This document shows positions 21,097 through 56,450 of a DNA stretch of 64,000 nt, one piece after another; positions within the stretch are counted from its first letter, which is position 1, and each line of letters opens with the position of its first letter. The stretch comes from Sphaerodactylus townsendi (lineage: Eukaryota). A program made the position numbers and the translations under genes. The DNA lies in NCBI RefSeq assembly GCF_021028975.2, contig NC_059430.1, positions 74,524,001 to 74,588,000 of the forward strand, read 5' to 3'. Under the pieces are notes generated by a model, which had not been told where the DNA came from, searched no databases, and was given only the letters and a program-made list of their open reading frames with translations.

Positions 21097-21719
21097 TCCT
21101 AGATCCTAGTTGAATAGTTGAAGCATTACATCACACTGTCACCTTTCCCTGGGCTACCTCAATCCCTGAAAACTGTGTGGGATGCAGTGAAAAAGAGACA
21201 GCTGCAAAGATTGTGCCCCTTTGTCCTAAAGTTCCCTTCAGCTCACAAAACAGAAGTCTGGATCTAACCTGCTGGTCTTTTATCTTACGCAATGCCATGT
21301 GGAAACAGAAGAAAATCATGTTTGGAAAGCAGAATGTTTAGCAATTCAAAAGCTTCAAATCACATTTATCTTCCAGTCTTTTAAGAAGCATAACACATAA
21401 TGCACATTTCCTGCTAAACAATTTTCAATGGGATCCCACATTCTTTACAATCTTTACAATCTTTCTTTANNNNNNNNNNNNNNNNNNNNNNNNNNNNNNN
21501 NNNNNNNNNNNNNNNNNNNNNNNNNNNNNNNNNNNNNNNNNNNNNNNNNNNNNNNNNNNNNNNNNNNNNNNNNNNNNNNNNNNNNNNNNNNNNNNNNNNN
21601 NNNNNNNNCCCCCTTCTCTATTTAATCATCACAACACCTCTTGAGGGTAGGTTAGGCTAAAAGACTGTGATTGGTCCAAGGTGTGATAGATGGCTTTCTA
21701 GCAAATCCCAGCCTACAGA

Positions 21720-22302
21720 GGCCGTTTCCGCACGAATGCGGAAGTGGCCAGGTCGGCGTACTCTACGCCGACCCGACGACACTAGGACCGTCCGCATGGA
21801 CGGTCCTAGAAAGAGCCGGGCAGCCAGCGCTGCGGAGCGCCAGCGCCCGGCCGACCCGGCGTGTCCCTGGGCCTCCGGCGCGTCGCCGAGGCCTGGGGAC
21901 ACNNNNNNNNNNNNNNNNNNNNNNNNNNNNNNNNNNNNNNNNNNNNNNNNNNNNNNNNNNNNNNNNNNNNNNNNNNNNNNNNNNNNNNNNNNNNNNNNNN
22001 NNNNNNNNNNNNNNNNNNNNNNNNNNNNNNNNNNNNNNNNNNNNNNNNNNNNNNNNNNNNNNNNNNNNNNNNNNNNNNNNNNNNNNNNNNGCACCCCCCC
22101 CCCCCCCCCCTCCCCCCCCCCCGACCCCCCCCCNNNNNNNNNNNNNNNNNNNNNNNNNNNNNNNNNNNNNNNNNNNNNNNNNNNNNNNNNNNNNNNNNNN
22201 NNNNNNNNNNNNNNNNNNNNNNNNNNNNNNNNNNNNNNNNNNNNNNNNNNNNNNNNNNNNNNNNNNNNNNNNNNNNNNNCAGCCCCCACAACCCCCCCCC
22301 CC

Positions 22303-22333
<31 letters not shown>

Positions 22334-22643
22334 AGCGGTGCAGGGCAGGGGGCGTGTCCCCAGGCCTCGGCGACGCGCCGGAGGCCCGGGGACAAGGTAA
22401 GTACAGGGAGGGAGGGGGGAAGCGCTGGGAAGCCGCTGCCGTTCGCACGGCAGCGGCTTCCAGCCAGCGTTTCCTCAACAAGTGCGCTTCCAAGCGCACT
22501 GGGAAAACTCCAGCGTTGGGACGGGCGGCCGGCACAAGGGCGGCGCGGCTGCGATGCAGCTGTGCCCCCTGTGCGAAAGGTGGCCTGGGGACGGCGTTTT
22601 TGCCATCCCCAAGCCGCCGTTTATGGCCCGTGCGGAAAGGGCC
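21720..22643. mobile_element. PIF/Harbinger-type MITE, subfamily A, reverse orientation, gapped
   Basis: TIRs ggccgtttccgcacg...cgtgcggaaagggcc; TSD aga/aga; interior unresolved (N runs). Confidence 0.8.
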
Positions 22644-22646
22644 AGA

Positions 22647-27911: not shown

Positions 27912-28085
27912 TATGGGTTTTACGGCTGTGTTCCAGTAGCATTTTCTCCTGAGGTTTTGCCTGCATCTGTGGCTGGTATCTTCAGAGGATCCTTTCTTCA
28001 GAGGATCCTTCAGAGGATGCAGGTGAAACAACAGGAGAACTGGAACACGGCCATACAACCCGGAAAACCCACAACACCCTAGTGT
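27912..28085. mobile_element. Penelope-like inverted-repeat remnant
   Basis: Arms homologous to 43710-43959; the centre has three copies of cttcagaggat. Confidence 0.75.
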
Positions 28086-29619
28086 TTCTCATTTGTTTTT
28101 AAGTAACGAAGAATGCATCAGAGAAGGGGTTTTTAAGCTTCTAGTGATTATCATCTTGAAAAGTAATATGGCCAGGTCACCAACTAAGCAGGAATTGCAT
28201 TTAGATCACAATACGGAGGAGCCTAACTCCTTGTGATCAGTTTGGACCAATGCTGTTCACCACAGGCATAAACACATCTTGTTTGCCATTCTTACTATCC
28301 CTTCCTCTTTCCTGAAATGGGTTGAGAATTCCAGTTCAGGAGAGGAAACAACCTTCATCTGGTCACTGCATCTTCTTCCAGACATCATGGGAAATAGGCT
28401 TTTGATTTGAGGCTTTCCAAATCAGGAAGATTCGCACTGTGGTAGGGGAGGGAGAGAGAGGAAGGAATTATGTGAACACAACAAAAATGTGTGATTGTTC
28501 TAGTCATTAACAAAATATGTTTGTACTTACTTCTGAAAGCATCCACAGGGAACCTAGCAGTGTGGGTTCGCTTGTAGTTTCATTGGAGAAACTTGAACCA
28601 TCGTTTCATAACCTGGGAAACCTTACATTTATTTAGCATTTTCTGGAAGAGAAGCAAGCCTGGCACGAAACTTTATACCTATATCTTTCTCTTATTGGAG
28701 GGAGAAGGTAACAAATTATTGTATATTATTCAGTTTTGAAGCTGAGTTATACTGACTGCCAGCAGCTCCCTTAGGTCTCTCAGGCAGAGGTCTTTTCCAG
28801 CCTAACTAGCAACAATATCACTGGGAACCTTCTGCAGGCAAAACATGCTGGATCATTTACCTATGGTCTAACTTCTCTAGTATCTTCCTGATAATAATGA
28901 ACACTGCTTCCAAGAGCAGCCTTAGCCAATGCGTAAGAGAAGTAGTTGCTCTGGCCTTCACACTTGAAGGCCCCCCCAACCAACAAAATCCCCCAACAAG
29001 TGAAGTCAGTCAGGTGAGAAAGTTAGAAATCTGTGTAAGATTTCATTGTTAAACACCACATTCAAGTAAACATGGCCAAATCATGTGCTAAGATTAGTTT
29101 CTGAGAACAGTGAATCGGAGGAGGAGCAGGGATGCTGGGAGCCAAAGACTCATACTGAATGGAGATTTCTCACAGGAAACTAACAGGCCTGGCATCTATA
29201 AACCCCTGGCATGTTAAAATTAGTTTCAACACCAGTCAGCCAAATTCATGTAATTTTTGAAAGCGGTACTTACTAGCAGCTGAAGATTGGGTGGATAACA
29301 TAAATTCACCTAATGATTCAAGTTCATCTGCCCATATGTGTCTATTCGTTAATTATACTTTTCCCTAAGAAGGCAATTAGCAGGCCTGTGTTTACTGGCT
29401 TGGTGTCGCTGGGAGGTATTTTACTGAAATCCTTCTCTGGCCCTCCTGAAACAGGGTACAGCATATACATGCGCTACGTGCTATACACTTTGAAAATCAA
29501 GAAGCAGATTTCAAGCACAGGCTTGTGTAATGCTGCTCTGTGCTTAGATCAACCACCCATGTTCTTTCTACATAATGCTTGCTGCTCTTCCCATGTCCTG
29601 GTGAATTAAGGGCTACAAA

Positions 29620-34454: not shown

Positions 34455-34850
34455 TTCAAACTCCACATGGAGTTCTGAGATGGTGCAGAGTTGAACACTG
34501 GGCTCTGCACTGCTTCTGAATGCCATGTGGACTTTGGAGGTGGCAGTGCAGAGCTGAATGTGGGCTCAGCCAGGCCAGGTCCAGCATTCAGCTCTGCACT
34601 GCTGCCTCTGAACTCTATGTGGACTTTGGATGAGGCTGAGAGCTGAATGCTAGACCCAGTTGGGCTGAGCCCAGCATTCAGCTCTGCACCACCACTGGGC
34701 TCAGCCTAACTGGGTCCAGCATTTAGTTCTGCACCACTGCTTCCAAATTCCACATGGACATTGGAGATGATGCAGAATTGAATGCTGGGCTTGCTCTGGC
34801 CGGGTCCAGCACCCTGCTCTTTGCTGCCATCTCCAAACTCCACTTGGGTC
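34455..34850. repeat. Array of alternating inverted units (gctgaatgctgg / ccagcattcagc)
   Basis: Repeated gtgcagagctgaatg..gg and ccagcattcagctctgcac in alternating orientation. Confidence 0.65.
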
Positions 34851-35004
34851 TCAAAGGCAGCAGGCTGTGTGTGTTCAGACTTACAAAGCAAACCTATGGG
34901 GAGTACCTCTCTTCTAAGCCCACTGTATTCAATAGACTTTTTTAAAGCTCAACTATGTTTAGGATAGCATTGAAAGTATATAATCCAAATAATACCTTCC
35001 TAGA

Positions 35005-35578: not shown

Positions 35579-37899
35579 TGAGATTTACTTCTGCCCCCTT
35601 AACACACAAGTAGGGATTCATCATCAAAACCAAAATACATTCTGAAACAAACTCGTCAGTGTTGTACACTTGAAAGAATCCTGTCCATCCATCACAGCCA
35701 GCATCCTTAGAATGTACCAAATTAGTCATAAGTCCATCACTATAAATGACAGAATTTATTATTCAATTATTGTTTTATTTTTAATATACAGTACAAAACA
35801 AAAACAAACAGTATACAGTATATAAAGTACAATCCTTCCTTCTAACTCATAGGAGTGGTATGGAACAAAATGGTGTAGATCTTTTGTCATTTATCAGAAT
35901 TAAAACAAAACAATGGATTGAACCCTGCTCCATTCGAATCTGAAGAAGCCTATTGTCCTTAAACTCAGTATGATGTGGATTACACTCTGTGTAAATAATC
36001 CTGTCCACTGTTGTCTGCCAGCATGCATATTTAATGAACTCAAATGGAACAACTTAAATGGTGACAGAAGGTAGCTGGGTGTTTCAGCTTAAACACAAAA
36101 GGAAAAATACATCCAAATAAGTTTTAATACTTAACTAGTAGTCACCCTGCATTGAATTTATATTCCAGCCATTTGATATTATTCATGCAATTTGTTAAAT
36201 TCAGAATTCATTACTTAGCTTACTTATGCTGATAGGTTGTTAGATACCGGATGTGCAAATTACATTGATAAAGCATACCGTGTATGTAAAGGGAGAGCTT
36301 TCACAAATAAGTTGAACTTTCCTTCTGTGCAGCTTGAAATTGGATATCCCCCAATATACAGAGAACACAATATTCTCTAATTACAGAACTTAATTGTCTC
36401 CCAAACTCGAGGATTGGATATCCAAACACTTATGAATTCTTTATGTATGGTTGTTTTAAAGTTCTTGAGTTTTAGATAGGCCTGGAAAGCAACATTATTA
36501 ATCATCTCACCCTCTAATAGTCTGTGCAACCCCACAGTTTGCAAAACTCTCTTTCTTGCTGTTGGCCCCAAAATTTAGCTCATTGTCATTCAAAGAGCAC
36601 ATGCACTTAGGAATAGGCTCAGTGGAAATTAATGTCTGCATTTCCAAGTGGTCATGTTAAAACTGAGGTATGAGTTTGCTTCTTACTGTTGCACATGGAG
36701 GGTATCCTTGTATATGCTGTATCTGTGACCTTGTTGCATAAGAGAACATCTATCAACACTGTGTCAGTTCAGGTGAGACCACTGTATGGGATCTAGTACT
36801 AAGGATGGCCTTTCCCTCTTAATGTTAGTTTTGCTTTTTTATATCAAGCCTTTTCTCATACTGAAGAGAATTCATTATGTCCACTCTCCATACACCTTCC
36901 CTGAGTTTTAAGCAAATTACAAATTAATTAACAGCATAATCTCAGGCAAAGTTATACCTACCTAAGCCCATTAACTTCAATGGTCTTATAGTGGTGCTAT
37001 TTCTGCTTAGTGGTGCTATTTCTGTGAAAGAATAAAGAGAAAGCCATCTTTCATTTAACTAGCAACTGACTCATTTGTGTTTATAGTTATTTGTATACAG
37101 TTTTCAGCCACTAATAAAATTTGTTCACAATATAAAAACTTGTTGATACAAGTATAATGATGAAATCCTTTTGCGGTACCTACAAACTGGAGGATGCTTT
37201 CTGAGAGAACCTCTAAAGCAAAACAAGCTGAGCCTTCTTCTAAGTGATTTGTCTTCAGGAGAACAGGACAATAGTGTCAAATGGATCCAAGATGATGGTC
37301 AACTGCTGCTGCTCCTGGTAGTACTGTCCCAAAACATCATTTGTACCAACTCTTAGGGACAAAGTGGATGCAGGAGTTCTTCATAGCCCTCTGCCTCAGT
37401 CCTTCAGATAGTCCTTTCACCTTGATACTGTGGCAAGAACACATATACCTTAGAATAAGTAGCCATGAGGGGAAAATGAATCAGGATGGCAAAGCCACAG
37501 AAGGAAGGTTAAAGCCCTTCCTTGACCTTTACCGGTTGAAACTAAGCCTTCCAGGCTGCCTTTATGCTGGTAGGGGGAAAAACATGAGAGTCTTCTCTCT
37601 GTTGATCTTTCCCCCCAACCTAAACTAGTTATCAGGGAAATGGCTTGTGAAAACAAATTAGCCCCCTCTTGCTCAGCCACCAGAGCCCTGATCCATCATA
37701 GGAAGTCTGGCAACCAGCTTTTACAAACTTAACAACTGAACAGGGGATCGGATCATGGATGCCCAGCATAGCATATAGGTTCATCCTAAGTACACTATAC
37801 TTGGATAGATTGACTAAAACCAGGATGGCTAATCAACTAAAAACCTTTTGCCCATTTTATTCCAGTGGTATATGCTCAAAGAGAAAAAAAATCTTGGTA

Positions 37900-38015
37900 A
37901 GTGTGGATTTTCTGAGATGTGTGGTCATGGTATGGTAGTTTTGCTCCTACCAGACCATGACCACACAGTCTAGAAAACCCACAATAGCCAGTTGCTTCCA
38001 GCCATAAAATTCTTT
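37900..38015. mobile_element. Penelope-like inverted-repeat remnant, tail interrupted by a MITE
   Basis: gtggattttct...gtgtggtcatggt / accatgaccacac...agaaaacccac; the tail resumes as gataatacat after 38482. Confidence 0.55.
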
Positions 38016-38479
38016 GGTCCTTTCCGCACGGCAGAAAGGGCACCTCTCCACCGGCAGAAATTATGCCGGTGAACGGGAGGGAGCCATTCGCACCGGAGCG
38101 TGCGAGCGGCCCCAACAGAGGCCAGCGCAGAAGAGGCGGCTCCGCATGGAGCCGCCTCTTCTGGATCCCCCCTCCCACTCACCTCGTCCTCAAGCATCAG
38201 TCTGGAGGGCTGCAGGGACTTGCCCACGCTGCCCTCCGACCTCCAGGGGTTGGAGGACAGCGTGGGCGGGTCTCAGCAGCCCTCCAGACTGACGCTGGAG
38301 GACGAGGTGAGTGTGGGGAACGGGAAAGAAGCGTCTTCCCACCTCGGGAAGGGAGGTGCTCAGGGCCGCACAGGACGGTGCTGCTGCATTGCAGTGGTGG
38401 CGCCTGTGCGAACAGCACCCCAGGGACCAGTGTTTTTCTGTCCCTGGGCCGCTGTTTTTGGCCCCGTGCGGAAAGGGCC
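38016..38479. mobile_element. PIF/Harbinger-type MITE, subfamily C
   Basis: TIRs ggtcctttccgcacgg...ccgtgcggaaagggcc; TSD ttt/ttt; internal inverted repeat. Confidence 0.85.
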
Positions 38480-40392: not shown

Positions 40393-43300
40393 TTTTAGAT
40401 AATCCACCTGTTTTTTTAATGTCTGTGTCTAAGTTATATGCCTCCACTTTTAAATCTTTATTGAGTAATTTCTGTTGTATGAGAATGCTGAGGCTTGATA
40501 AAAAAACAGAATCAGGCAGAGTTGTTATTTGTCTAATTTGTTGACACAAAAACTGATTGTGGATTGTTGCCTAAATCAATTTCAGTACAGCATCTTCTGT
40601 ACCATTAATCAACAGGACTTCAACAGGTAATGGCTATCTGAATAATTTACTTCTCATGGTTCTATGGCAGGACACCTGCTTTGCAAGTAAAGTTCCCCAT
40701 CAGCATTGATAGCAGGTCTGTGAAAGACCTTGAAACCATGGAGCGAATAAATATTATTGGACTACATGGGCCAGTGACCTCACTCAAGTCATGTCCATAC
40801 ACGCTATGTATATATTTTAACTTAACAAATTATGCTGAATTAACATTTGCGCCCAGATGTGCAGAGGTTTCATCTGGTGAATAGCCACAGGACACATCTT
40901 GGAATTAAAATGGGCCACAGCCCTTTTTATTGAGGCAGAAGCTAGGCATGCAAGAGGAGCACATCCATTCAGCAGCCGGTCAACACCCATGGCTGAACCC
41001 CGGCACCAACCTCAATCCATATTGGGGAGGAAAGAGAAAGTACTGGGCCACCTCGGCACCCGCCTGGCCTAGCTCCATTAAAAACAGCAAGCGCTGGTTC
41101 AGTTTGCTCCAGGCGTTGAAGAAGGCCGGACCAACTGCGTGCTGCCTAATATATAGGGAGCGTGCTCCGCCCCTTGCGCTCATGCGCCAACGCGATCAGG
41201 CAGGGTATGACTCAACCGCCCAACGGGACCAGGGCACGCATACTCACTGCTCAGGAGCTCACCATGTGCCCTGTCCCCTGTCGCAATTACGGCGTGGTTG
41301 ACTCTAGTGCTGTTATTTATAATATCTATAATATAATATTTGAATTATACAGAAATTATACAATTTCTCAATATCTGGGGAAAAATGAATGGGGTTGCTA
41401 AGGAATATACTTTTCTTCAGAATATCATAGATAACACTCAAGAATGGACATGATTATGGGGACAAAATACTTGAGCTTAGTGGCAGAAAGTAAAATAATA
41501 GAACCTAAGATTATATCAGATTTTAGGGGAGACTACTTGAGATATGGAGATATATTAATAAAATCAGAAGTAGACATTAAACCGAAAGACACAAAATTAT
41601 AGTAAATAAAGAACACCACCAGTAGTTTTCGTATTGTCAATTAAAAGAAAAATTCTTTTTTTCTTTTTCTTTTTTTAAAAGAAAAATTAACACAGGATGG
41701 GAAGATAGGTTTTGGAATGGAAGAGTCAGAATTATGGATGGCTTTAAGGTCATCTGTCAGGGAGGGCAAGGCTGTTTCCGTACCATTACCTTGCCTGAAA
41801 CCAGTCCCAACTTGTCTCTCTGGCCAAGCACCAATAACAAAGTCTCTACACCAGCCGCAAGGTGGGAGGGTCATTTGGTCAGCCATTCCCCCACCCTGTT
41901 TTACCAGCTTAGGCTGGTACTACACACAGTAACCATGAGGCAGAGCTCAGTATGCACCGGACCCCCAGCTCCCTCACCCAGGTCTCTGTGAGGCACACCA
42001 GGTCAGTCCCCTCATCAGATCAAGCCCTAGATGAGAACAAATTTATTTTGGACCAATCTGGCATGCACAAGCAGCAGCACCAGGAAAGAAGACTGGATGA
42101 CATGTACCGCTTGGTCTCCCAAGGCTGGGGGGCAGAGTGAAAGGGATGATAGCATATAAACACCCATGATCCCTTCTCCGCAACCTAGCTCTCTACGCCT
42201 CCACACCACAGTGCCCCCTGCCTATTAGCACTGAAATACAGCCCTCATGCCCCCTCTTCCTCCCTACCCAGACAGATGTACCCCAACTAGCTTATCCCCT
42301 GACCTCAGATATTGAGCCCTCAGATTAGGCACCACCACAAGTCACGCTAGCCAACAGTCAGGTTGGGCCCTCCATCTCCAACTTGAAAGGAGGATGCTTG
42401 CAAACTACTCTCCCTCCTCCCATTCAGGATTAGAATCTTCTCTCTCAGAGCTACCTTCTCATCCTAGCCCTGTATACCACCAACTACTGACTACTATGCC
42501 CAGCTAAAGCAGTGTCGGGGCAGATCAGGGGGACTCCCAACTGCTGGCCAAAAGTTACTCCCCCATAACTCATGTCTAAACAAGAGACCACCTGCACCAC
42601 CCTACCCTACCACCACGGGGACACATGGGGTCACATGTCCCCATTCACACACCATCCCATCACGTGGGTGTGCAAAAACCACCCCCACACCCCTCCTCCC
42701 CTGTGCCAACTCAGGTCCCAGGTCGGCGAGGGGGAGAAGGGGTGTGTTGTGTGGAGGTTATTTTGCACTCCCCCACACCTCCCTTGTGCTGATTCAGCTT
42801 GTCCAAGTTGGCACAGGGGAGGAGGGGACGGCACCCATGGGGGTGCAAAATCGCCCCCACATCCTTCCCCCTCGCCGGCCCTAGTCCCACCAGGCCACTT
42901 CTTCAGCCAGTGGAGGCTGAAGGAGCAGCCTAGCAGGGCTACCACAGGTAGCCACAGCCAAGCGCCCCTCTGACCCACCCCACCAGGCTGCCAGGGCCCA
43001 TCCTACCACAGACTCAGGTAAGTGGGCTGCGGAGGCGTAGCTATAATGGGATGCGGGAGCATAGCTGCCCTGGGACACAGGGGGCATAGCTACTACGGGG
43101 GGGACAGAGGCCACCAATTTGCCCCGGGAGCCATTTTCCCCCACTATGCCTCTGCCTACCCCTCAAGCCAATTATTAAAAAGTGACCTGCTGTATCCCCA
43201 CTGGTTCCCCAAATGTTGGCAGAATATTCTCCTGCCCATTCTAGAATTTTAATTAGTTATTTTGTTCATCAGCAGAGTGAACCATAATTTACACATCCAA

Positions 43301-43761
43301 ACTTCAGGAAGCTTACTTTTTTTTCCCCAGTGCTGTGGCACAGTCAATCTGGCTGCAACCAGTAAATTTCTTACCAGTTACTTTCTTTTTGATTTATAAC
43401 TACTTGGAACCATATTTACTAAGACAAACTTAGGTTCCGTAAACAATTTAACCCCTAGTAGTTCTCCTAATACACTCAACACTTCTTTCTAGAATACCTT
43501 TGTGGCTGAGCAAGACCACCAAAGAAGAAAAAGTGAGCCATCTTTACTACTACATCTCCAGCATCCCTTCAAAACAGTCTTCCCTATTTGAGCCACTTTA
43601 TCTAGGTTTAAATAACATGTGTATAACATTTTTACTGTGTTTTCTTATATATTTATATTCGGAGCAAAGTACTTAATGTATTGTCGAAGGCTTTCACGGC
43701 CGGAATCACTTGGGTGCTGTGTGGTTTCCGGGCCGTATGGCCGTGTTCTAGCAGCATTCTC

Positions 43762-43804
43762 TCCTGACGTTTCGCCTGCATCTGTGGCTGGCATCTTCAG
43801 AGGA
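43762..43804 (-). ncRNA. Minimal hammerhead ribozyme motif (mirror copy)
   Basis: Exact reverse complement of 43865-43907. Confidence 0.75.
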
Positions 43805-43864
43805 TGCTTGTAATCGGGGGGGGGGGGGTAATAATGGAAATCAAAAGTCTAATACATTTCATGA

Positions 43865-43907
43865 TCCTCTGAAGATGCCAGCCACAGATGCAGGCGAAAC
43901 GTCAGGA
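43865..43907 (+). ncRNA. Minimal hammerhead ribozyme motif (PLE type)
   Basis: tcct-CTGAAGA-t-gccagc(cacagat)gcaggc-GAAAC-GTC-agga: intact core, helix II, helix I tcct/agga; predicted cleavage after 43903. Confidence 0.75.
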
Positions 43908-45377
43908 GAGAATGCTGCTAGAACACGGCCATACAGCCCGGAAACCACACAGCACCCAAAGTACTTAATATTCTTATGAAGCTAGAATGATTGTTCCTAA
44001 TATTTCTTGTAGATCTTTTCCCTAAATCGTTTTATAAAAGAGGAATTTTTGCCCAGGTGAATTAATAATTCATATGTATTAGCTACCAATTTAGACTGCT
44101 TCTCCAGCTCATATTTATCTTTTTCAAAATCTTTTAAGTCTCACACTATATTTATTTCTTATTGTCTCTGTCATTAAACTTATAATTGAAATATTGAAAT
44201 ACTGATATTCTAAGATGTGTCCCACTGTTTTCTCTCTTACCTCACTGTAAATCAAGATTATTTCCTCCTCTGCAAAGTTCACAACTCTTATTAGATCTTT
44301 GTCAATACAGGTACTGAACATGCCATGTTCAAAAGTCTAATACATTTCTTTCCTATTAAAATTGGCATGTAAATTGAATTCTTTAGGTTGAAATAATTTC
44401 ATTATTTTCCCCAGCTTTCACTGCAGTTTGCCAAACCTCATGGTTCCCAACATCATGCCAGAATGCTTTTTCTCTCCAAATTCATATAGATAATGGCATA
44501 TCAATCCATAGCTGCTTGACTTCCCAGATCTGTTTGACTCCAATCTTCCTGAACCAATCAGATATAGCAGCTAATTTGGAAGTATAATAACATTTTACAC
44601 TATATGGAGCTGCAAGTCCCCCTCTTGCCAAAACCACCTCATAATTTTAGCTTGTAATCGGGGGGGGGGGGTAATAATTTCTTATGAATGTATTGAATAA
44701 CTATCTTAAATAGCAGGGTTTGCTTAACTAATAATGGAAATAGAATAAACAATAAAATAATTCAAGGCAATATCTTCCTTTTTAATACTGCTACATGCCC
44801 TAATGCTAATTATTCAATTTTAAAAATCGTCAAATTATGGTAATGTACCAAAGCTATCACTCACCATTGTTAACAAATTACTAGATAAAATAATTCCCAA
44901 ATATTTAGCATTGTTTCCCAGCCACTCTTGATCCTGTGATTATTGAAATTTCCAATCTGGTCTCCTCAGCAAAACTGATATTGTTCTATTAATTTTATAC
45001 TGCGATATTTGGTTAGATGCATTAAGGATATTGCCTTACTCTCATATAGATTGTTTTAGCTTCTGTAAGGCAAGGACAATATCATCTGTGGATAGCAGTC
45101 ATTTTGTTTCTGAACTGGAGGTTTCAGTACCTTAAATGTTAGAGTTCTGTCTAATCTTAATGGCTAAAACTCCTACTACCAGATTAAATAAAGATTCATT
45201 TGCATTCCACTCTAGCCTCATAGCTCAATCCCAGGTGTGATGAAGGAATATTGTCCTGCAGATACATAGATCTCCCTCTAGGTCCTGGAATGTTCCTTCT
45301 AGCCTTGGTAAATACCCTAACAATTCGGTAAAATTCAGATTTGGATTTATTCAGGCATAACATTATCTGTATGCCCA

Positions 45378-45498
45378 CAGTGGTGTAGGAGGTTAAGAGC
45401 TCATGTATCTAATCTGGAGGAACAGGGTTTGATTCCCAGCTCTGCCGCCTGAGCTGTGGAGGTTTATCTGGGGAATTCAGATTAGCCTGTGCACTCCC
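45378..45498 (+). mobile_element. Squam3-like SINE 5' fragment
   Basis: A-box-like tggtgtaggagg and B box ggtttgattcc; matches the reverse complement of 4570-4693. Confidence 0.8.
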
Positions 45499-46057
45499 TC
45501 CATCTCTTTTCCTCATGTTTCCAGGAACATGGTAAGGTATTTTAACTTACAACCCTCAGAAAATTGAAGATTGTTTTTCAGTTCCATTCTGCTATTCTGA
45601 ACAAAATTTTAATCATAATTTTTAAAAGAATCATATATTTGAACTCTCCTGTATAATAGGTAAACTTTCATGTTTGTTAATACTCTCATCAGCTACAATT
45701 TCACTGGAAAATCACTTCACAAAAAGAGAGGAGAGGAAATGGATCTTTCAGTATTTAGAAACTAAATGATTACTATGCTTCAAATGTAATTTTCCTCTAC
45801 AACATGAAGGAGCTCCATTATTTCCAGGGATTTCCATTGCTTGCAGGCAGGACTGAATGATTTATTTTTTGTACTTTTGCCTAAAAGCATATGTTGACAG
45901 AATTAACTAATGTCCAGAGACTTCAGAAACAAGATTCAAAGTGTTGCATGTAGTTAGACACAACATTGAGTTCTGTTACTCCTAGAATCTCAGCTGGTAC
46001 TAATCAGTTCAGCTATTTGACTGAAAGCAGCAGAATGAAGTTATTACATACTGTCTT

Positions 46058-46205
46058 CTTCAAGGCAAGAGACAAATAAAGGTGATTTGCCATGGCCTGT
46101 CTTCACAACAACCCTGGAATTGCTTAGTGGTCTCCCATCCAAGCACTAATTTTAAAAAATCCGCTTGGCTTTTAAGATCTGATGCAATCCAGACAGCCTG
46201 GGCCA
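46058..46205 (-). mobile_element. Degenerate 5S-derived SINE
   Basis: ggtctcccatccaagcactaa is the reverse complement of the 5S C-box region; tail motif as in 27149-27677. Confidence 0.6.
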
Positions 46206-46498
46206 CTATCCTGGTTTTAGTAAAATGATTTCAAAAGCTAACTTTTGGAAAAGATGACTGGCATTGAGCAGCATCTAGTTCAGACCAGTGACCCCTTTGG
46301 CATAATGCTTAAAATCTGTTTCGTTCTCAAAGTGGAGACAGGACAGTAGCTAGCAAGAAACATATACAAAACTAATACAAACCATCTTTAAAAAGGATTA
46401 AGGAATAATTGGACAACAAAGAAGGGGGGGAGGGCTACAACATATGAAGTGGACATTCTCAGAGGTCCCTAAAGACCATGATGAGACATATTGGCCAG

Positions 46499-46714
46499 TA
46501 GGGTTACCAGCCATAAGGTGAGATCTAGAAATCTCCTGGATTTACAACTGATTTACAGACTGCAGCAATCAGTTTCCCTGGAGTAAGTGGGAGCTCCAGA
46601 GGGTGACCTCCATGATATCACACCCCTGCTCAGCTCCCTCTTATCTCAAAACTCCACCCTCCCCTAGCATCAACCCCAAATCTCCAGTAATTTCCCAATC
46701 CAAAATTGGCAACT
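46499..46714 (+). mobile_element. hAT-Blackjack-like MITE
   Basis: tagggttacca...tggcaact termini plus family body. Confidence 0.65.
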
Positions 46715-47034
46715 TGTCAAAGAACATTTAAAACGTGATCCATGGTGGGGGGGGGGGGAGTTTTTTTAATCAAACATTATTCAATTCTATTCCACATCTC
46801 TAGTTCATCCACAATTCCTACCTTAGTACGGGACAAAACATTTGTACAAGAAACTTTGGGTTAGTCAGGCTTTATGGTCTACTGAAGAGCTTTATAGCAG
46901 TGCTCATCTTTATATACCCCCATCACTGTAGCTAGAAGATAAAACTTTGTGAGAAGGGAAGGAGAAGGAATTGAGGAAGAGAAAAATTGACTACTGTGGA
47001 GTTAGGTAACAGGAAAATATTTTGAATGGGCTGT

Positions 47035-47235
47035 TAGGTTTGCCTACTGCATCTTGGAAAATTACTGCAGATTTGGGGCAGTGTCTGGTGACCGGAGAAT
47101 TTGAGGAGGAGAGAGAGGAAGATCAGTGGGGACGTAATGCCACAGGGTCCACCCCCTGAAACTGCCATTTCCTCCAGGGGAATTGATCTCTATCACTTGG
47201 ATCAGTTTAAACTCTGGGAGAACACCAGACCCTAA
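47035..47235 (-). mobile_element. hAT-Blackjack-like MITE
   Basis: taggtttgcc...gacccta termini; reverse-orientation family body. Confidence 0.6.
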
Positions 47236-49004
47236 CTTTAAGCAGGTAATCCTAGGATCAGGTCTTTTTGACAATTCAGATAATTCTCTTAGGAATCCCA
47301 AGCTATCCCCAAGAACTCTCTGAAAATCTTGGAAAGAACATGAGATGATGATTGTTGGAACTTCTCCAGTTGGTACACTCAAAACATAGAATGTTATTTT
47401 CTTTTTGAATACTAAATATTCCAGTTGCTGCCCTTTGCTTAATCAGATACCACACCAAGCAGGGAGAGTTATGTAAGGTGTTCATGCACAGAGGCAGTGC
47501 ACTTGTTTAAGAAAACCCCATACTGGACAGAACTAGAAGGCAGTCATTTGTGTGTGTTATTTTATGCCATCAACTCCACAGTTATCAGTACTGTGATTCA
47601 CATTTAGAGTCAGAATTTACTCTGGGGGCACAATGCTTTGATTTGTAACAGCTTGAAATGAATTGTTCCTACATGTCGCATGAAGGAAATACAATAAGAC
47701 ATTTTTACTGCTTAAGTCTGACGCCCTTCATGTTTGCCTCTCTGCTGAGAGATTATGAATGCCACAAATAATCTCTCAATGAACTTAATAAATGAAATGA
47801 GGAAACAGAATTTTGTCTTGATCACAGCCGACAGAAGCTTATGACATTCAGCTACCATTAAGCATGGGGTTTTAGAATTGCTGTTGCTTGGCAACTGAGT
47901 TACCCTTCTCTTCTAGAGGTGTCATTTGGTGAACTGCACCATTTTCTCTTCTAGCCTCTGCCTTAATAGGGTCTCTAGTAAATAATATCAAGAAGCAGTT
48001 AACACCAAGGGCCATCCAGAGGTGCTCTAAAAGTTTGATGCCATTTATTTTTTATACGATCACACTCAAGCTTCTGTCTAATGACCCAGATTTTGCCTGT
48101 GGTAGAAATGAAAAGATATAATTGGCATATCAGTTGCCATGGGAGAAGCTGCTTGAGTATAGCACTCTCCTTTTCCTCCTCCCATCACTGCCATCCTTCA
48201 GAAAGATACAAAAATGCCACATTTTCTTCTGACTATAAGCTGCTGGGTGATTTGCTAGAAACCCCCATACAATCCACTCAGAATTCACCCACATTCTTTA
48301 GCTTAAAGTGATTATCTTTTTATGTTTCTGGAGTTATATACAATATTATCAAATTATTTAGGATTCAACAGATTTTTATCCCACCCTTCTTCCAAGAAGC
48401 TCATAGTAGTACACCTGATTTGTCCCTCTTCCATTGGATCTGCAACAACCTTGTTTGAAATGTCAAACTGAGGGAGAATTACTAAACTACGACCACTTAG
48501 GAGGTTCACAGTAAATCGGGATTTTAATCTGGGTTTCCTCTTTCCTAGGCCTCCTCCTGACACAGCCAAACCCCTTTACCCTCTCCTGAGCTCTCTCTGG
48601 ACCAAGTGCCAGTGCTCCAGTGAGTCTAAAATGGCAATTGCTGAGCAACAGGATGATCCATGTGTACGGGAGGTTTTCAGAGGAAGACTTGTTCTTAAAT
48701 GAATGTGAGTCAGTGGGTCATAAGTCATGCAGGCTTCAAATACTTTCACCTACACGTAGGAAAAGAAATGTTGTATATGTTAGGGAGAAAAAATATGTTA
48801 GGGAGAAAAAAATAAAGGAATAACAAGAGAGAATTTTTGCCTAATTTCAGCTAACCTTTCAGCTAACTCTGGGTAGTCCTTTCCTTGGTGGCTGAGGCAT
48901 TGGTTGGGTTGCCAACATTAAAACAAGTCCCTCTTGCTGTCCCTTTCATATTAATTTAATCTACAAGCAATTGCTAGGTGATGTCATTTAACTTACCTCT
49001 TAGT

Positions 49005-49887
49005 CTGCCTGACATCAATATCAGGAAAGATTCTAGAGCAGATAATTAAACGGTCTGTAAACACTTAGAAGGGAATGCCATGATCATTAAAAGTCAATAT
49101 GGGTTTCTCAAAAACAAGTTATGCCAGACTAATCTTACCTATTTTTTGATAGTGTCAAGCTTGGGAGAGAAAGGGAATGTTGTGGAAGTAGTATACCTTG
49201 AATTCAGTAAGGCCCTTCACAAGGCCTTCATGATATTCTTGCAAAAAAGCCACAAAATCTAGACAATGTTACTGTTGGGTGGATTTGTAATTGGTTGACT
49301 GACCAAACCGAAAGGGTGCTCACCAATGGCTTGTCTTCATCCTGGAGAGAAGTGACTAGTGGGGTGCCGCAGGGTTCTGTCCGGGGCCCGTTGCTGTTCA
49401 GTAGTTTTATCGATGACTTGGATGATGGAATAGAGGGCATGCTAATCAAATTTGCAGATGACACCAAATTAGGAAGGGTAGCAAATATTCCAGAGGATTA
49501 AGTCAGAATTCAAAATGACCTTGATAGAGCTGGGACAAGACTAACAAAATGAATTTCAGCAGGGAGGAATGCAAGGTATTACACTTTGGCAGAAAAAACG
49601 AAATGCACAAATATAACAGGTGACATCTGGTTTGACAGCAGTACATAAGGAGGAGATCTGGGAGTCTTAGTAGTCCACAAGCTGAACATGAGTCAACAGT
49701 GTGATGTGGTAGCTAAGAAAGCCATTGCAATTCTTGGCTACAGCAATAGGAGTATAGTGTCTAGATCAAGAAAAGTAATAATTACCACTCTATTCTGCAC
49801 TGGTCAGGCATCACCTGGAATACAAAGTCCAGAGGAGGGTGACCAAAATGGTAAAGGTCTGGAACTCATGCCCTATGAGGAAAGAGT
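49005..49887 (+). mobile_element. CR1 LINE ORF2 (RT domain) remnant, part 1
   Basis: [70 protein letters not shown]. Confidence 0.9.
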
Positions 49888-50288
49888 TGCAGCCCAACCC
49901 AGAAGGCTTCCAGGTGGCACAGGGAGACAGTTGAATGGAAAAAAGCCCTGCCACCCAGAAGCCTTTCATCGGGCTTAATGGAGTTATGGTCGCATAACTC
50001 CGAGCCCCAGGCTGTGGTCTTCATGGCCCTAAACCCTGGCTGAAAGTCTACTAAAGTTGATTCTGCCCCCGGGAACACCCCAGGTCTGTTCTCCCCATGC
50101 CAGTTCCAAGAGGACACCAGAATTGCTCCACGGCAGCCCGGACTTCTGGATTTTAATGTCATTGGGCAGAGGAGTGGTCAGGCACTGGCAACATTGCCTC
50201 TCCACTGGTAGAGGTGCCCTTTGCACTGGAAAAGGGGGGAAATGCATCGGCACAGCTCTCCGCTGCTTCCTGGGAGCATTCAGCCCCC
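49888..50288. mobile_element. Unclassified ~400-bp insertion (MITE-like) in CR1
   Basis: Interrupts the CR1 MPYEER|RELGMFSLEKRRL junction. Confidence 0.55.
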
Positions 50289-50355
50289 AGGGAGCAGTAT
50301 GTTTTAGTCTGGAGAAGAGAAGATTAAGGGGTGACATGACAGCCATGTTTAAATA
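50289..50355 (+). mobile_element. CR1 remnant, part 2
   Basis: Translates to FSLEKRRLRGDMTAMFKY. Confidence 0.85.

Positions 50356-50402
<47 letters not shown>
50356..50402. repeat. (TAT/TAA)n microsatellite at the Dong 3' end
   Basis: Directly visible. Confidence 0.95.
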
Positions 50403-50403
<1 letters not shown>

Positions 50404-53400
50404 AAAACAGTTATACACAGCAAACAAGATCAATATGCTGGATTTTGTATTACATCACACGTCGGATACTTCCCAAGCATCTAGGACTGTGTGATGTATC
50501 GACGAATAATGCGTGCAGAGCCGAGTAGGGTGGCCTTTTGCAGCTGACATATGGTGATTTTGTCAGCGCCAAATTGTTTTAAGTGCCGCCCAAGATCTTT
50601 AGGCACTGGGTAACCCAGTGTGCCGATCACCACTGGGACCACCTGTACTGGTTTGTGCCAGAGTCTTTGTAGTTCAATCCTTAAATCCTCGCATCGTGTA
50701 AGTTTTTTCCAGTTGCTTCTCATCAATCCTGCTGTCACTCAGGAATTGCAACATCAACTATCCACACTTTCTTTTTTTCCACAATTGTGAGGTCAGGAGT
50801 ATTGTGTTCCAAAACTTTGTCAGTCTGAATTCGGAAGTCCCAGAGCTAGTTTCTTTATCGCAGTTCATTTTCAGTGACCTTTCTTCAGGTTTGTGATTCC
50901 ACCCAGTTCTTTGTCAGCAGGCAGATGGTAGTTGTGGCACAAGTTCCAGTGAATCATCTGAGCAACGGTATTATGCGCTCTGCTTAGGAAATAGTCCGGT
51001 CTCATGCATCTTCTTGCAGCAGCTAAGTATGTGGATCTATTGTTTCGTCCTTGCTTCCTTGCAGTGAGTCTGCAGAACTTGGGATCTGTAGTTGGACTTT
51101 TCAATTCTGGCTTTGATGGCGTTTGGTCGGATCGCTTGTTATTGTGGTGTAAGAATCGAGAGCTCAGTCTCCTTTTTCAAAGTTCTGTTTGTGAGCCTCT
51201 ACCAGTTTTTTTTTCCTTTGTCAATTTTGTTCCTCAATTTTTTCTAGTGAACCTGTCCATGGAGAGCCTTCTTTTGCCAGCGTTTTCTCTTCTGCTTTGC
51301 AGTGTATTTTACGGTATTCACTCTTTGTCTTTGCACTTTGAGCAGTTTTCTGCTGTTGACTTCCATCAATGTTGGTTCTTCTCAAACTGTTTTTTCACAT
51401 AATCTCGCCAGTGCATGTTTCTCTTCTTCCACCGCTTATTCTAACTTGCAGAAGCCCCTTTCTACCTCCCTGGACCTTTTGTGGGTAGGTAAAGTCTGTC
51501 AACATCACTAACGCTGGGTGTAAATGAGTAGTGGATTGTCATCAGTTTTCTTGTTTTTCTGTCCAGATCATCCAGCTCTGCTTAAGGCGCCCAGTTCACA
51601 ATTCCAGCAGTGTATCTGATGACGGGTATGGCCCAGGTGTTGATAGCCTTGATCAGTGATTCCCGCCGCTTAATTTGCTCTTCAAAAAATTTTTTTCTCT
51701 TGGACCCTTTGGACATATTCTCTGCTGACCACATTTTTTCTTACATAGTCCATGCTTCGATGTTGTCCAGCTGTAGTATTCCCAGGTATTTATAGGATTC
51801 AGGTTGATTGCAGAATTTTTATGGTTTTTTTTCCTCCATTAGGGCAGCTCTATGCCCTTACTGTCAGTAATTTTCCCTTTCTTCAATGCCATACTGTGGC
51901 GCATTTTGTCCAAGCCAAACTCCATACTCAATGTCATATTGCTGGAAGATCTCCTGACTGTGTTGGTCAGTGACTGAATTTCAGTTTCTGATTTTCCATA
52001 AAGTTTTTTAGGATCATCCATGTACAGCAAGTGGGAAATTTTTTGTGAATTCTCTTTGCAGTTTGATAGCCCTAGGTTTGTTTTTTTTGTAGAATTGTTG
52101 GACAGTGGGATCATTGCAATGATGAACAACAATGGTGACAGTGAGTCAAATTTGGAAAATTCCTCTCTTGATAAGTGTTGATAGTCTCCATAGCTTTGGT
52201 TGCCCACGAACAACCTTAGTTTTCCAGTGTTTCATTGCATTTTGAGTAAACTTATAATATTTTCACAAACCCTGCTAATGACATCCATACAGACATTTGA
52301 TGATCCAACTGTGTGGCAGTGAGTCAAATCAGTTTTTTTTGTAATCAATCCAATGCTTGTATACAGGTTTGTTTTCAGGCTTTTGCAGTTCTCCAGTATC
52401 ATTTTATCAATCAGGAAGCTGATCTTTGGTGCCCCTACTTCTTCTTTTATTACCTTTTTGTCTCTAATTGGCAAGATGTTATTTGGTCTCCAAGTAATCT
52501 TGGATTTGATCAGCAATTATGCCTGTCAGCAGTTTGAACATTGTAGGCAAAACACGCTATTGGCCTGTAATTTCCTGGTATTGTCCCTTTGGTTGAATCT
52601 TTCTGTATCAAATATGTTTTTCCAGTTACTATCCATTCACCGATGTTTACGGCTTCCAGCATTTCATTGAATTGTTCGGCCATTTTTGAGTGCAGGTTGG
52701 TCAGATATTTGAGCCAAAATCCATGCAACTGATCAATAGCTAGGTGATGTCCAATCTTTTTACCTCTTCACTCTTTTACTGATTTTATTTCTGTTGTTAT
52801 TTCCAGGTTTCTCATCCTGTTCCTTTGTACCCTCTTTTCAAAGTCTTTTATCCAATCTAGCATTTTTTGTTGTAGTCTTTTTCTGGTTTCCCACAAATTC
52901 CTTCCAGAATGTATTTGTAGCTGTTTCTTTTTCTGGTTTTTCATTCTGCACAGCTGCCTGCTGATTCAGACTCTGGTAGAACCGGCCTTTGATCTGACTG
53001 GAAAGTTGATTTTGTTTGTAAATTGGATGACTCTAGCTTCATATCGCCTAATTTTTCTATTGTTACAGATCTGTTGTTTCACACTCAAGTGCTTCTTCAA
53101 TTTTTTCTTGTGTTCAGCCAGTATTTTTTAATCAGGTTATTCTTTATTTTGACATTTTTCTGCTTTTTGTTCCTTCATGTTCTTCTTCAGATTGTTTGCA
53201 TCTGATCGAGGGTTCTTTTGATTTTTAACTCCAACCTGATTTTCCACTGGTTTGGAAATACTTCCTTTTTCTTTGGCGGGGCTTCCAGTTTCTTGTATCC
53301 CCAATTCTTTTGTGTTACAACCACTACAATTGTATGCAAACTGATTTAGTTTCTTCCATTGATGTTATCTGGATAGTTGTGGGAGTGCAGTATCTACATC

Positions 53401-54227
53401 TTCCATTAGAGGTGCCAGATGTTTTCTTGGTACTGTTTTCAATGTTGGCAGTCTCTTTGCCTTTCTCTTCCCTTTGATGCAGCATATAGGCTTCCAAAAT
53501 TTTCTCTCTTTAAGTTCTTGTTGCCTTGTGGTCAATGTGCCAGGGTGTACCAAAATGGCCACAGGTTTTTCAAGTAAAATTTCTGCTCTTTCTTCTGGCT
53601 CAAAATGTTCAGTGGACCTAGATATTGTTAGTCCTACAAATTGTCTCCCCACAGTTGCCTGTTCTACTGTTTCATGCTTTTTCCGTATTTCTTCACGTTC
53701 GACTACACCGAACACCTTGTTCCTGGTTGGGTGAATCACTTCTGGTCAGCAAGTCTCAGTCTAGTTACAGTTGAATCTGGATATCTGAAGTTTCCTACAG
53801 CCGGTACATCCGGGCTTTGGTAGCCACGCTTTCTAGTCTCATTTATGGTAGTGCCCGCGACAGTTCGATTCTCTGACATTGAAAAAATTTCTGTCATGGT
53901 AGTTGTTTTATCTAGTTGGCTCTGCAGGCCCATGCCCTGGTTGCTCAGCAATGGGTCCTGGTTCCTGTAGCCCACTTGTCGACGGATGCCCAGGGTTCAC
54001 CAGCACCCGGCCAAGGTTCACATTCCCATGAGTATGACCAAGCTTGTGTATAGACTTCTTTTGAGTTTGTTTCTACCCATATTTTAATGGGTTGGGTGCA
54101 CTTAGTCCCTTCTCCCCAATTCGAGACCACACTTGGCATGGTTGAACCTGCCGGGTAGTTTGTACTCACCACCAGCACAGCTCTCAACATCACAGAAGTG
54201 AGCTAAGCCCCCCCCACAACGGCTAGC
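50356..54227 (-). mobile_element. R4/Dong-clade non-LTR retrotransposon (RT + REL endonuclease), frameshifted, near full length
   Basis: Fragments HGFWLK, GKTYLIQKD..PGNYRPIAC, LIDKMILENCK, DSLSPLLF, SHLLYMDD, MEFGLDK, AHNTVAQMIHWNLC, DLRIELQRLW..VVPVVIGTLG..QLQKATLLGSARIIR; 3' (TAA)n tail; 5' end runs into the N gap. Confidence 0.9.
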
Positions 54228-54690: not shown

Positions 54691-55619
54691 ACTTCATATC
54701 ATGAAAAGCTTCAACAGCCCCTTTCCACTCATTCAACTTTTGTTAAATGGAGAGAACACACACACACACACATACACAAACCTCCAGCAGGCAATTGCCT
54801 GGATATTGGTGGTGATACTCAGGCAGTAAACTTTGCTTTCCAGCAAAGCTGGTTTTGGTGTATCTACAAGAGCATACAGCTATCTGTGAACACATTTACC
54901 ATCATTTTAAAATGAAGCTATAACCCAATTTCACATAGCAGCTTTGTAATGTGAAAACAAAGAAAAATGAAAATATAACTGAAATGAAAGCTTACATAGC
55001 AACAGACCATTAATATAGATGAGCTTCATTCTTCTGAGACACTGAAAAGAGAAAATAGTGGTGTAACTGCTTGAGCTGAAAGAACAGATGATATCAACTG
55101 ATCTTGCTCCTAATGCAAAATCTATCTAAAGATTTTCTCATTGAAAGGAAATTCTGGTTCTCAAAGGGAAAATCTGCTGTCATACCAAATAACTTTAGTG
55201 CCTTACATACTGGGGACATTGTTAATGAACAGAGCCTCCTCACACATGGAGAACTCCTGGATCACTGCCAGTGTCAGTTCCTAAATGGCTAGTTTGCCAA
55301 GTAACTGCCAGTTTCGTCATATACCCTTTAGTAGGCATGGAAGCAATTCTCACTTTCACACCCACCCCTTGAATTGGCTTTTTTTTACCCTCTTTGTTCC
55401 AATATCACCAGTTTCCTTTTCACCACTGCTCTGCCCCTCATGGAAGGTGAGTGGTATATATGTTTGCCTGTTAAGTTTATTTCTGGATTTCATCAGAGGT
55501 GCACAGGAGAACCAAGAGCTTCAAGTGTACTCTAACTTGCACATGGAGCTCCTCTGTTGACAAAGCTCTCTACTGACTTGAAAGGGCACTTCAATACCGT
55601 CATGGCCCCTGCAATAACC

Positions 55620-56450
55620 GTCACGGCCCCTGCAGCTCTACAGCATTGTTTGGAGGCGGTCTCTGGTTGGTTACAACAGAGCAGGCTGAAACTGAATCCA
55701 TCGAAGACGGAGATCCTTTGGCTTGGTCACAAGGGGAGGGGGGGTTTCCAGCTGCCGGAGTGGGAGGGGACCATTTTGGCGCCAGCCCCCTCCGTCCGCA
55801 GTCTGGGGGTCCACCTGGATTTGTCTCTTTCGATGGAAACCCAGGTGGCCCTTACAACCCGGACTGCATTTTTCCATCTCCATCAGGCCCGGCGGCTGGC
55901 CCCCTTCCTCTCCCAAGTGGACCTAGCCACTGTGATCCATGCAACGGTCACCTCCAGGCTTGACTATTTTAACTCGCTCTACGCGGGCCTTCCCTTGCGC
56001 TTGATTCGGAAATTGAAACTGGTCCAAAATGCAGCAGCGCGCCTGCTCACAGGGGGCGCCTTTCGTGATCACATCCAGCCTGTGTTGCGCCAGATGCATT
56101 GGCTTTCCAGGTGGAATTCAATCATTTTCTAAGGTATGGTTTTGACCTTTTAAGCGCCTTACTGTGGGCCTGGGACCCTCGCACTTCAGGAGGACCGTGA
56201 TGACATCCCATATGCCCCTACTCGGCTTTCTCTTGCGCTCAGGAGAGGCTTCAATTTGTTGGTGGTTCCTTGGCTCCCTTCAATGATGCGGTTGGCCTCC
56301 ACACGGGCCAGGACTTTCACAGCCCTAGCCCCGGCCTGGTGGAACACTCTTCCTCCAGCTGTCCGGGCCCTGCGGGACCCTGGTGAGTTCCGCAGGGCCT
56401 GTAAGACTGAGTTGTTCCACCAGGCCTTTGGAGTGTCCAGTCACTGAAAT
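55620..56450 (+). mobile_element. L2-clade LINE 3' portion
   Basis: CLEAVSGWLQQSRLKLNPSKTE, VRSLGVHLD, TVIHATVTSRLDY, KLVQNAAARLL, LRQMHWL, APAWWNTLP. Confidence 0.9.

What the first reader, a model, noticed from the sequence alone, without database searches (positions are those of the whole stretch)
43806..43860. Spacer of the Penelope fold-back is a patchwork matching three nearby downstream sites
Seen: most of the spacer between the inverted arms is not element sequence. 43806-43835 (gcttgtaatc-G13-taataat) matches 44650-44678 (G12). 43829-43841 (taataatggaaat) matches 44729-44741 and joins the first piece through a 7-nt taataat microhomology. 43841-43860 (tcaaaagtctaatacatttc) matches 44329-44348. 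All three are in the same orientation, 0.4-0.8 kb downstream, and out of order. Inference: serial template jumping onto local DNA or nascent RNA during PLE insertion, either by the element RT or by Pol-theta-type repair. It would record how the inverted pseudo-LTR structure is completed.
Basis: partly seen in the sequence, partly recalled or inferred. Interest (0 to 1): 0.75.

Follow-up and report, generated by a model that had tools for sequence, protein, structure and literature searches.

The report
Patchwork filler joining a Penelope insertion
The 57 bases between the two mirror-image halves of a young Penelope-type retrotransposon insertion are almost entirely short copies of host DNA lying 0.4-0.8 kb to one side, likely a DNA-repair scar made when the two halves were joined, which would mean such mirror-image insertions can be finished at the target site itself.

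Summary
Observation confirmed. 55 of 57 spacer bases (43806-43862) match three + strand sites in the right flank; 0 of 1073 control tiles reach 40 covered bases. The spacer sits in a 292-bp head-to-head Penelope/Poseidon-type insertion with a 13-nt target duplication. Contigs of two related species cross the empty site and hold the donor sites, and the family's own upstream sequence differs from the spacer, so flank DNA was copied into the insertion. The two outer ends fit the two reverse-transcription starts described for the anole element PAc, which nicks and extends both strands in vitro (PMC11167929). Best reading (0.5): each nicked strand primed its own cDNA and host repair synthesis bridged the two cDNA ends by copying the resected right flank. 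Rivals: the element's RT did the copying (0.2); a plain palindromic joint broke later and was repaired (0.18); artefact (0.07). No contig across the spacer was displayed, the enzyme is not identified, and it is one locus: 0 of 3 older inverted copies in the window show flank templating. Locally templated filler is known for LINE-1 and polymerase theta; I found no report for Penelope elements.

The parts
43665..43677 (+). Left copy of the 13-nt target-site duplication; holds an 8-bp palindrome (43667-43674); its last 3 nt also fit the element's own sequence
   Evidence: empty-site contigs join 43664 to 43957 (records 17 and 24); family copies align up to 43675 (loose ends)
43678..43805 (-). Left arm: short Penelope/Poseidon pLTR piece with hammerhead motif, first codons of the ORF and the tail; its outer end lies 117 nt from the ATG
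   Evidence: start window 111-118 nt in PMC11167929; about 75 of 91 positions alike to the PAc RNA of Fig. S1, compared by eye
43678..43709 (-). 32-nt tail, present on the left arm only
   Evidence: 30-40 bp optional tail in PMC11167929, PMC8557442, PMC3846280
43806..43835 (+). Filler piece 1, copy of 44650-44678 (G13 here, G12 in the window's donor, G13 in the donor of run X3)
   Evidence: table 4
43829..43841 (+). Filler piece 2, copy of 44729-44741, entered through a 7-nt overlap with piece 1
43841..43860 (+). Filler piece 3, exact 20-nt copy of 44329-44348, 1-nt overlap with piece 2
   Evidence: expected 3e-8 times in +/-2 kb
43861..43862 (+). Two bases with no traceable template
   Evidence: they match neither the donor's continuation nor the family's upstream consensus
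43863..43959 (+). Right arm: same pLTR piece, tail-less, outer end 82-85 nt from the ATG (43875); predicted ribozyme cut after 43903; one difference from the left arm (43734/43935)
   Evidence: cut site 26 nt after the start codon in PMC11167929
43957..43969 (+). Right copy of the target-site duplication; its first 3 nt also fit the element
44329..44348 (+). Donor of piece 3, ordinary flank; species B has another base at 44342, the spacer carries the state of A and C
   Evidence: table 3
44650..44678 (+). Donor of piece 1; G run differs between samples and is interrupted in species B and C
   Evidence: tables 3-4
44729..44741 (+). Donor of piece 2

Best explanation
The spacer is host flank DNA copied into the middle of a young head-to-head Penelope-type insertion, likely by host end-joining repair while the insertion was being completed. 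Inferred steps: the element protein cut both strands 7-13 nt apart; each 3' end primed its own cDNA, one from the tailed start and one from the tail-less start; both cDNAs stopped near the GATC motif just upstream of the ribozyme core. The two cDNA ends have the same sequence and can pair only through that 4-base palindrome, the commonest joint in other copies; here the left end is one base short of it. The left end then likely annealed to the right flank left single-stranded by resection, copied about 30 nt, slipped 57 nt forward on a 7-nt repeat, jumped back about 400 nt, copied 20 nt and was joined to the right cDNA. Polymerase theta is the most likely enzyme but is not identified.
For: Shown: matches and controls; empty site with donors in 2 of 2 other species laid, so copying ran flank to insertion; spacer unlike the family's upstream consensus in 4 of 4 runs (loose ends); spacer alleles fit the species-A haplotype at 44342 and at the G run, and G13 equals the donor allele of sample S2; outer ends at 117 and 82-85 nt from the ATG, as for the two PAc starts, and PAc cleaves and extends both strands in vitro (PMC11167929). 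Other copies join near GATC by many different joints with small losses or 1-5 extra bases, and some keep 1-7 family bases upstream of GATC, so arm ends cluster there without needing a later break (tables 5, 5c). Direct orientation is what copying from the opposite break end gives, and one shared base suffices for priming (PMC5068794); patchwork inserts arise from repeated primer-template switching (PMC8654963); LINE-1 insertions with DNA templated near the site exist (3 cases, PMC11702581).
Against: Distance: in C. elegans about 85% of templated inserts prime within 10 bp of the break (PMC5068794); here donors lie 360-772 nt beyond the duplication, which needs long resection or strand invasion. 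No microhomology at the arm/piece 1 joint and 1 nt at piece 2/3. No displayed contig crosses the spacer; the junction contigs of X1 and X3 reach only 22-23 nt into the element, under the tool's 31-letter bridging rule, and X1 has 0 differences from the window, so it may be the source sample. Three donors on one side and strand has a 1-in-16 chance, weak support for the resection geometry. 0 of 3 older inverted copies in the window show flank templating. One event.
Confidence: 0.5

Rival explanations
1. The element's own reverse transcriptase made the filler by jumping from the end of its RNA onto local single-stranded DNA or onto a nascent transcript of the locus, several times, before the ends were joined.
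For: PAc initiates internally on a template without homology to the primer (PMC11167929), which would fit the 0-1 nt joints. LINE-1 ORF2p can use DNA templates and switches templates in cells (PMC11702581); R2 proteins jump templates and give extra-template junctions (PMC11371274). A nascent RNA would put sites 0.4-0.8 kb away within reach without resection.
Against: Pieces are only 13-30 nt and one switch uses a 7-nt overlap, like annealing-driven repair synthesis (inference). No transcript of the locus is shown; 148 of 211 long reading frames scanned gave no host gene family, though short exons would be missed. R2 extra templates were almost always U6 RNA.
Confidence: 0.2
2. The insertion first had the family's common perfect palindromic joint at GATC; the palindrome later broke at its centre (hairpin or cruciform opened at the tip) and repair added the templated filler, which removed the perfect symmetry. 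The filler would then say nothing about integration.
For: Both arms end within one base of the palindrome's motif (43805 and 43863), as tip opening would leave them; the perfect joint 43802 to 43863 is the displayed joint with most contigs in 4 of 4 runs (22, 17, 20, 21 contigs). Centre-break revision of palindromes is recalled from the literature, no call.
Against: Arm ends cluster near GATC family-wide, including forms that keep family bases upstream of it and so cannot come from a perfect GATC palindrome (table 5c); perfect joints persist in many copies; two events are needed within the short time since species A split from B (flanks differ by 16 of about 1390 letters, records 17 and 23).
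Confidence: 0.18
3. The spacer is an assembly, polishing or amplification chimera formed at a strong hairpin.
For: No displayed contig crosses the spacer (table 8 cut, 187167 pieces not shown); the insert folds as a long hairpin (-132 kcal/mol as DNA); G13/G12 could be a homopolymer error. At place 44342, inside donor 3, no extra depth is listed for X1 or X3 (table 3).
Against: Both outer junctions appear in contigs of two samples of species A; pieces of 13-30 nt from three places are not what graph or polishing errors usually make (inference); the G13 state exists as a real donor allele in sample S2; extra depth in the bin of donor 3 equals one single-copy 20-nt piece in X1 and X3 (20.7 and 27.4) against 6.7 and 0 in the empty-site runs, an indirect and inconclusive sign.
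Confidence: 0.07

Closest known systems
Canonical Penelope/Poseidon insertion architecture (PAc of Anolis carolinensis, PMC11167929; Pen2a_Av, PMC3846280; PMC8557442)
   Same: Inverted head-to-head pLTR pieces, tail of 30-40 bp on one end only, short target duplication, AT-rich target with ATT, hammerhead motif overlapping the start of the ORF.
   Different: No ORF body here; the joint holds 57 nt of target-locus DNA. PMC3846280 explains head-to-head joints by self-priming on an antisense template and describes palindromes at the joint and 0.9-1.5 kb captured host spacers before a direct pLTR, not short copies of the neighbouring flank.
LINE-1 twin priming and locally templated insertions (PMC11702581)
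   Same: [quoted passage not shown]
   Different: LINE-1 arms cover adjacent parts of the RNA, here both arms cover the same part; there the templated DNA is ascribed to processing of the reciprocal end; I could not see their Fig. S10 for distances or piece numbers.
Polymerase theta-mediated end joining with templated and patchwork inserts (PMC5068794, PMC8654963)
   Same: Short direct-orientation copies of break-flanking DNA, several rounds, 0-7 nt overlaps, a slipped homopolymer, a few untemplated bases.
   Different: Typical donors lie within about 20 bp of the break; here 360-772 nt, and the joined ends are retroelement cDNAs.
R2 5' junction classes: join, snap-back, extra template (PMC11371274)
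   Same: cDNA 3' end primes extra synthesis on itself or, less often, on nearby target DNA before the junction forms.
   Different: R2 has one cDNA end; extra templates are mostly U6 RNA; here two cDNA ends and three flank pieces.

Membership tests
Penelope-like element, Penelope/Poseidon clade (the arms) | pLTR sequence related to a characterised member | tested here: met
   About 75 of 91 positions alike, no gaps, to the PAc RNA printed in Fig. S1 of PMC11167929; compared by eye
Penelope-like element, Penelope/Poseidon clade (the arms) | Optional 30-40 bp tail at one end; ends at the two RT start sites | tested here: met
   32-nt tail on the left arm only; ends 117 and 82-85 nt from the ATG
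Penelope-like element, Penelope/Poseidon clade (the arms) | Inverted pLTR arrangement with short target duplication | tested here: met
   96-nt arms, 99% complementary; 13-nt duplication confirmed by empty-site contigs
Penelope-like element, Penelope/Poseidon clade (the arms) | Minimal hammerhead ribozyme in the pLTR | tested here: inconclusive
   Core motifs are readable and the predicted cut lies 26 nt after the start codon as in PAc, but Rfam gave no hammerhead match and the monomer fold is no better than shuffles (z 0.12)
Penelope-like element, Penelope/Poseidon clade (the arms) | ORF with RT and C-terminal GIY-YIG endonuclease | not testable with these tools
   Only the first 39 codons are present; no whole genome is held
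Polymerase theta templated insertion (the filler) | Insert maps to break-flanking DNA, in pieces, mostly direct orientation | tested here: met
Polymerase theta templated insertion (the filler) | At least 1 nt of priming homology at each switch | tested here: inconclusive
   7 nt and 1 nt at the two inner switches, 0 nt at the arm/piece 1 joint, 2 untemplated bases at the other end
Polymerase theta templated insertion (the filler) | Template usually within tens of bases of the break | tested here: not met
   360-772 nt against about 85% within 10 bp (PMC5068794); so it works like such an insert but is not filed as one
Polymerase theta templated insertion (the filler) | Genetic dependence on POLQ | not testable with these tools
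   needs de novo insertions in knockout cells
RT template jump onto cellular RNA | Donor is a transcript of matching strand, entered at or near its 3' end | not tested
   No RNA run was laid; the single lay went to four contig runs

The most novel reading that the evidence does not exclude
Penelope head-to-head insertions are built at the target from two independently primed cDNAs, and the joint is a gap closed by long-range templated synthesis on flank DNA or nascent RNA up to 0.8 kb away, possibly by the element's own telomerase-related RT. A measurable share of the very many young copies in these genomes would then carry a record of the local single-stranded DNA or RNA at the moment of insertion, which would settle the self-priming versus double-priming question from genome data alone.
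Probability: 0.25. Interest if true: 0.7.

Novelty: new variant of a known kind. Interest (0 to 1): 0.45.

Why it matters
How Penelope-like elements form their inverted structures is called undefined in PMC8557442, and PMC3846280 proposed self-priming of the element's RNA. A joint made of target-locus DNA cannot come ready-made from the source element, so, unless it was added at a later break, it favours two cDNAs primed at the target and joined there, in line with the both-strand extension seen in vitro (PMC11167929). The family has very many young copies (41,503-54,204 contigs laid per run), so the idea can be tested genome-wide with existing assemblies. As a single scar it has no known function and the repair chemistry is familiar from LINE-1 and polymerase theta.

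Tried and rejected
Chance: rejected. Spacer as family sequence: rejected (loose ends). Spacer as source and flank sites as copies: rejected, donors lie in empty-site contigs of species B and C. Genome-wide test: no whole genome held; motif scans of metagenome, viral and prokaryote collections gave 0 hits for the first motif and 1, 0, 0 for a looser one; the one hit, L001, shows no further likeness to the element on reading and was dropped. Other inverted copies in the window: 19781-19852 has only 10-11 nt chance matches and begins with sequence like a sister subfamily's upstream consensus (23 of 28 by eye); 27991-28015 repeats the arm's own end; 37925-37965 has no real spacer. Rfam: only sub-threshold microRNA-hairpin matches. 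Host gene and strand: 148 of 211 frames of 75 aa or more scanned, 3 RT fragments, no host family. Folding of the single-stranded right flank does not pair the donors with each other. Depth arithmetic as proof of the spacer: inconclusive, since 44342 shows no excess and several unrelated bins also show excess. A fourth 4-base piece to explain the two untemplated bases: too short to test (3 such 4-mers within 44300-44380). PMC12016303 held none of four terms on templating; 10.64898/2026.07.22.740005 had nothing on inverted joints. Earlier-findings look-ups by sequence, place and words were empty.

Full report
Observation. The three matches are present as described. Spacer 43806-43862 has 57 bases, 55 of them covered by exact matches of 13 nt or more to the right flank, all on the + strand. 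Controls: of 1073 equally long tiles of the window compared with their own flanks of 1 kb, 20 had any such match and 0 reached 40 covered bases (two of the best were the donor sites matching back to the spacer); with 2 kb, 25 and 0 of 1038. The real spacer against other parts of the window reached at most 13 bases (8 of 116 and 16 of 108 places had any). In 2000 shuffles of the flanks, 4 (1 kb) and 12 (2 kb) had any match, at most 14-15 bases. No 13-mer outside the G run matches the window beyond about 2 kb. Pieces 1 and 2 are best read as one copy of 44650-44741 that skips 57 nt between two 7-nt repeats; piece 3 comes from about 400 nt nearer the insertion.

Anatomy. The spacer lies between 96-nt arms that differ at one base. 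The left arm carries 32 further bases, the tail. A 13-nt direct repeat flanks the whole (43665-43677, 43957-43969); three bases at each inner end also fit the element, so the true stagger is 7-13 nt. The arms are about 75 of 91 alike, without gaps, to the RNA of the anole Poseidon element PAc printed in Fig. S1 of PMC11167929 (compared by eye). Measured from the ATG, the left arm ends at 117 nt, inside the 111-118 start window of that paper, and the right arm at 82-85 nt, one tail length shorter. [quoted passage not shown] A hammerhead motif is readable, but Rfam and folding do not confirm it.

Related sequence. Of 17 runs listed I laid 4, all contigs. In species B (X4) and C (X5) single contigs run from 43664 straight to 43957: the empty site, with the donor regions in place. 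So the insertion is young and copying ran from flank to spacer. In both samples of species A (X1, X3) the flank contigs run 22-23 nt into the element on both sides, short of the tool's 31-letter bridging rule; X1 equals the window and may be its source, X3 differs at 3 of 399 and 6 of about 1017 letters. X3 has G13 at donor 1, the spacer's number; B and C have interrupted G runs and B another base at 44342, so the spacer fits the species-A haplotype. No displayed contig crosses the spacer (the table was cut). Extra depth in the bin of donor 3 equals a single-copy 20-nt piece in X1 and X3 but not in X4 and X5; against this, 44342 itself shows no excess, so I count it as inconclusive. Loose ends give the family's upstream consensus in 4 of 4 runs (agreement only 0.38-0.40), and it is unlike the spacer. 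Joints of other copies (15 of 842 rows shown) cluster at the GATC motif: the perfect palindromic joint has the most contigs in each run (22, 17, 20, 21), others lose 1-12 bases or hold 1-5 extra ones, and some keep 1-7 family bases upstream of GATC. The layout of this window can only display joints near these positions, so this is not an unbiased spectrum.

Mechanism. Shown: structure, donors, direction of copying, youth. Inferred: a staggered double nick; two cDNAs, one from each start; both stop near GATC; identical ends can pair only through that palindrome; the left end, one base short, instead copied the bottom strand of the right flank, which 5' resection would expose, in three rounds before joining. 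Direct orientation, priming on as little as one base and multi-piece inserts are described for polymerase theta (PMC5068794; PMC8654963). Against classical tip-proximal repair: donors are 360-772 nt away whereas about 85% of such inserts prime within 10 bp in C. elegans, and the first joint has no microhomology. The microhomologies read the same in both directions of synthesis, so neither the priming end nor DNA versus RNA template can be told. I give 0.5 to host repair during integration, 0.2 to the element's RT, 0.18 to a later centre break of a palindromic joint (this kind of revision, hairpin-tip opening and long-range resection are recalled, no call) and 0.07 to artefact.

Generality. Not established. 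No whole genome is held and collection scans found no further copies. Of the 3 older inverted copies in the window, 0 have a flank-templated spacer: one is family sequence, one repeats the arm's own end, one has none. Age would erode short matches, so this is a weak negative.

Comparison. The head-to-head layout with tail and duplication is the normal form of these elements (PMC8557442; PMC3846280). PMC3846280 reads palindromic joints as self-priming on an antisense template; a joint filled with target-locus DNA cannot be brought from the source, which favours joining at the target unless the filler came later. LINE-1 gives twin-primed inversions resolved by end joining and three insertions with DNA templated near the site (PMC11702581); R2 gives snap-back and extra-template junctions (PMC11371274). 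I found no report of flank-templated filler at a Penelope inversion joint in searches (related searches); the library lacks most subscription papers.

What I saw of each paper. PMC11167929: parts 1-2 of 4 of the text (abstract, main text, start of methods), further passages, and supplementary files 1-3 as text only (figures and the GenBank file unreadable). Passages only: PMC11702581 (12 of 15 places; its Fig. S10 on locally templated inserts not seen and may bear on distance), PMC8557442 (9 of 9), PMC3846280 (11 of 11), PMC5068794 (12 of 18), PMC8654963 (9 of 9), PMC11371274 (12 of 20), 10.64898/2026.07.22.740005 (7 of 7, not relevant). PMC12016303: term search with no hits. All others: search listings.

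Verdict. A real, statistically clear templated patchwork at the joint of a young inverted Penelope-type insertion. The chemistry is known from other systems, the setting appears unreported, and it points to a cheap genome-wide test of how these inverted structures form. One locus, enzyme unknown, spacer not directly read-confirmed: interest 0.45.

Noticed in passing
window 43665-43677: The target duplication is nearly centred on a perfect 8-bp palindrome (43667-43674), and both inner ends share 3 nt with the element at its two start sites; would fit a dimeric endonuclease and slight primer-template pairing, although PMC11167929 reports initiation without homology. One case.
   Followed up: partly
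window 43863 and tables 5, 5c: Family-wide, inverted joints cluster at the GATC motif 12 nt upstream of the ATG, most often as a perfect palindrome; annealing of two identical cDNA ends through a self-complementary motif could explain palindromic joints without self-priming.
   Followed up: partly
window 27915-28088: Older inverted copy of the same family whose joint repeats the arm's own end two more times (exact 16-nt tandem) before entering a shortened right arm: self-templated filler or a later duplication.
   Followed up: partly
window 19691-19965 and 37895-38010: Two older inverted copies of a sister subfamily; the first has a 72-nt spacer that begins with family sequence and an 8-nt candidate duplication (19680/19973).
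   Followed up: partly
window 43734: The left arm's single difference from the right arm is the minority state among laid family contigs (table 3): later mutation, RT error or a second template RNA.
   Followed up: no
window 49211-49498 (+), 51842-52231 (-), 55536-56129 (+): Three reading frames with RVT_1 matches, probably decayed retroelement fragments.
   Followed up: no
window 1405-1902, 13539-14061, 21719-22646; 42690-42861; 38171-38318; 34510-34860: Several other GC-rich repeat families with internal inverted structure.
   Followed up: no
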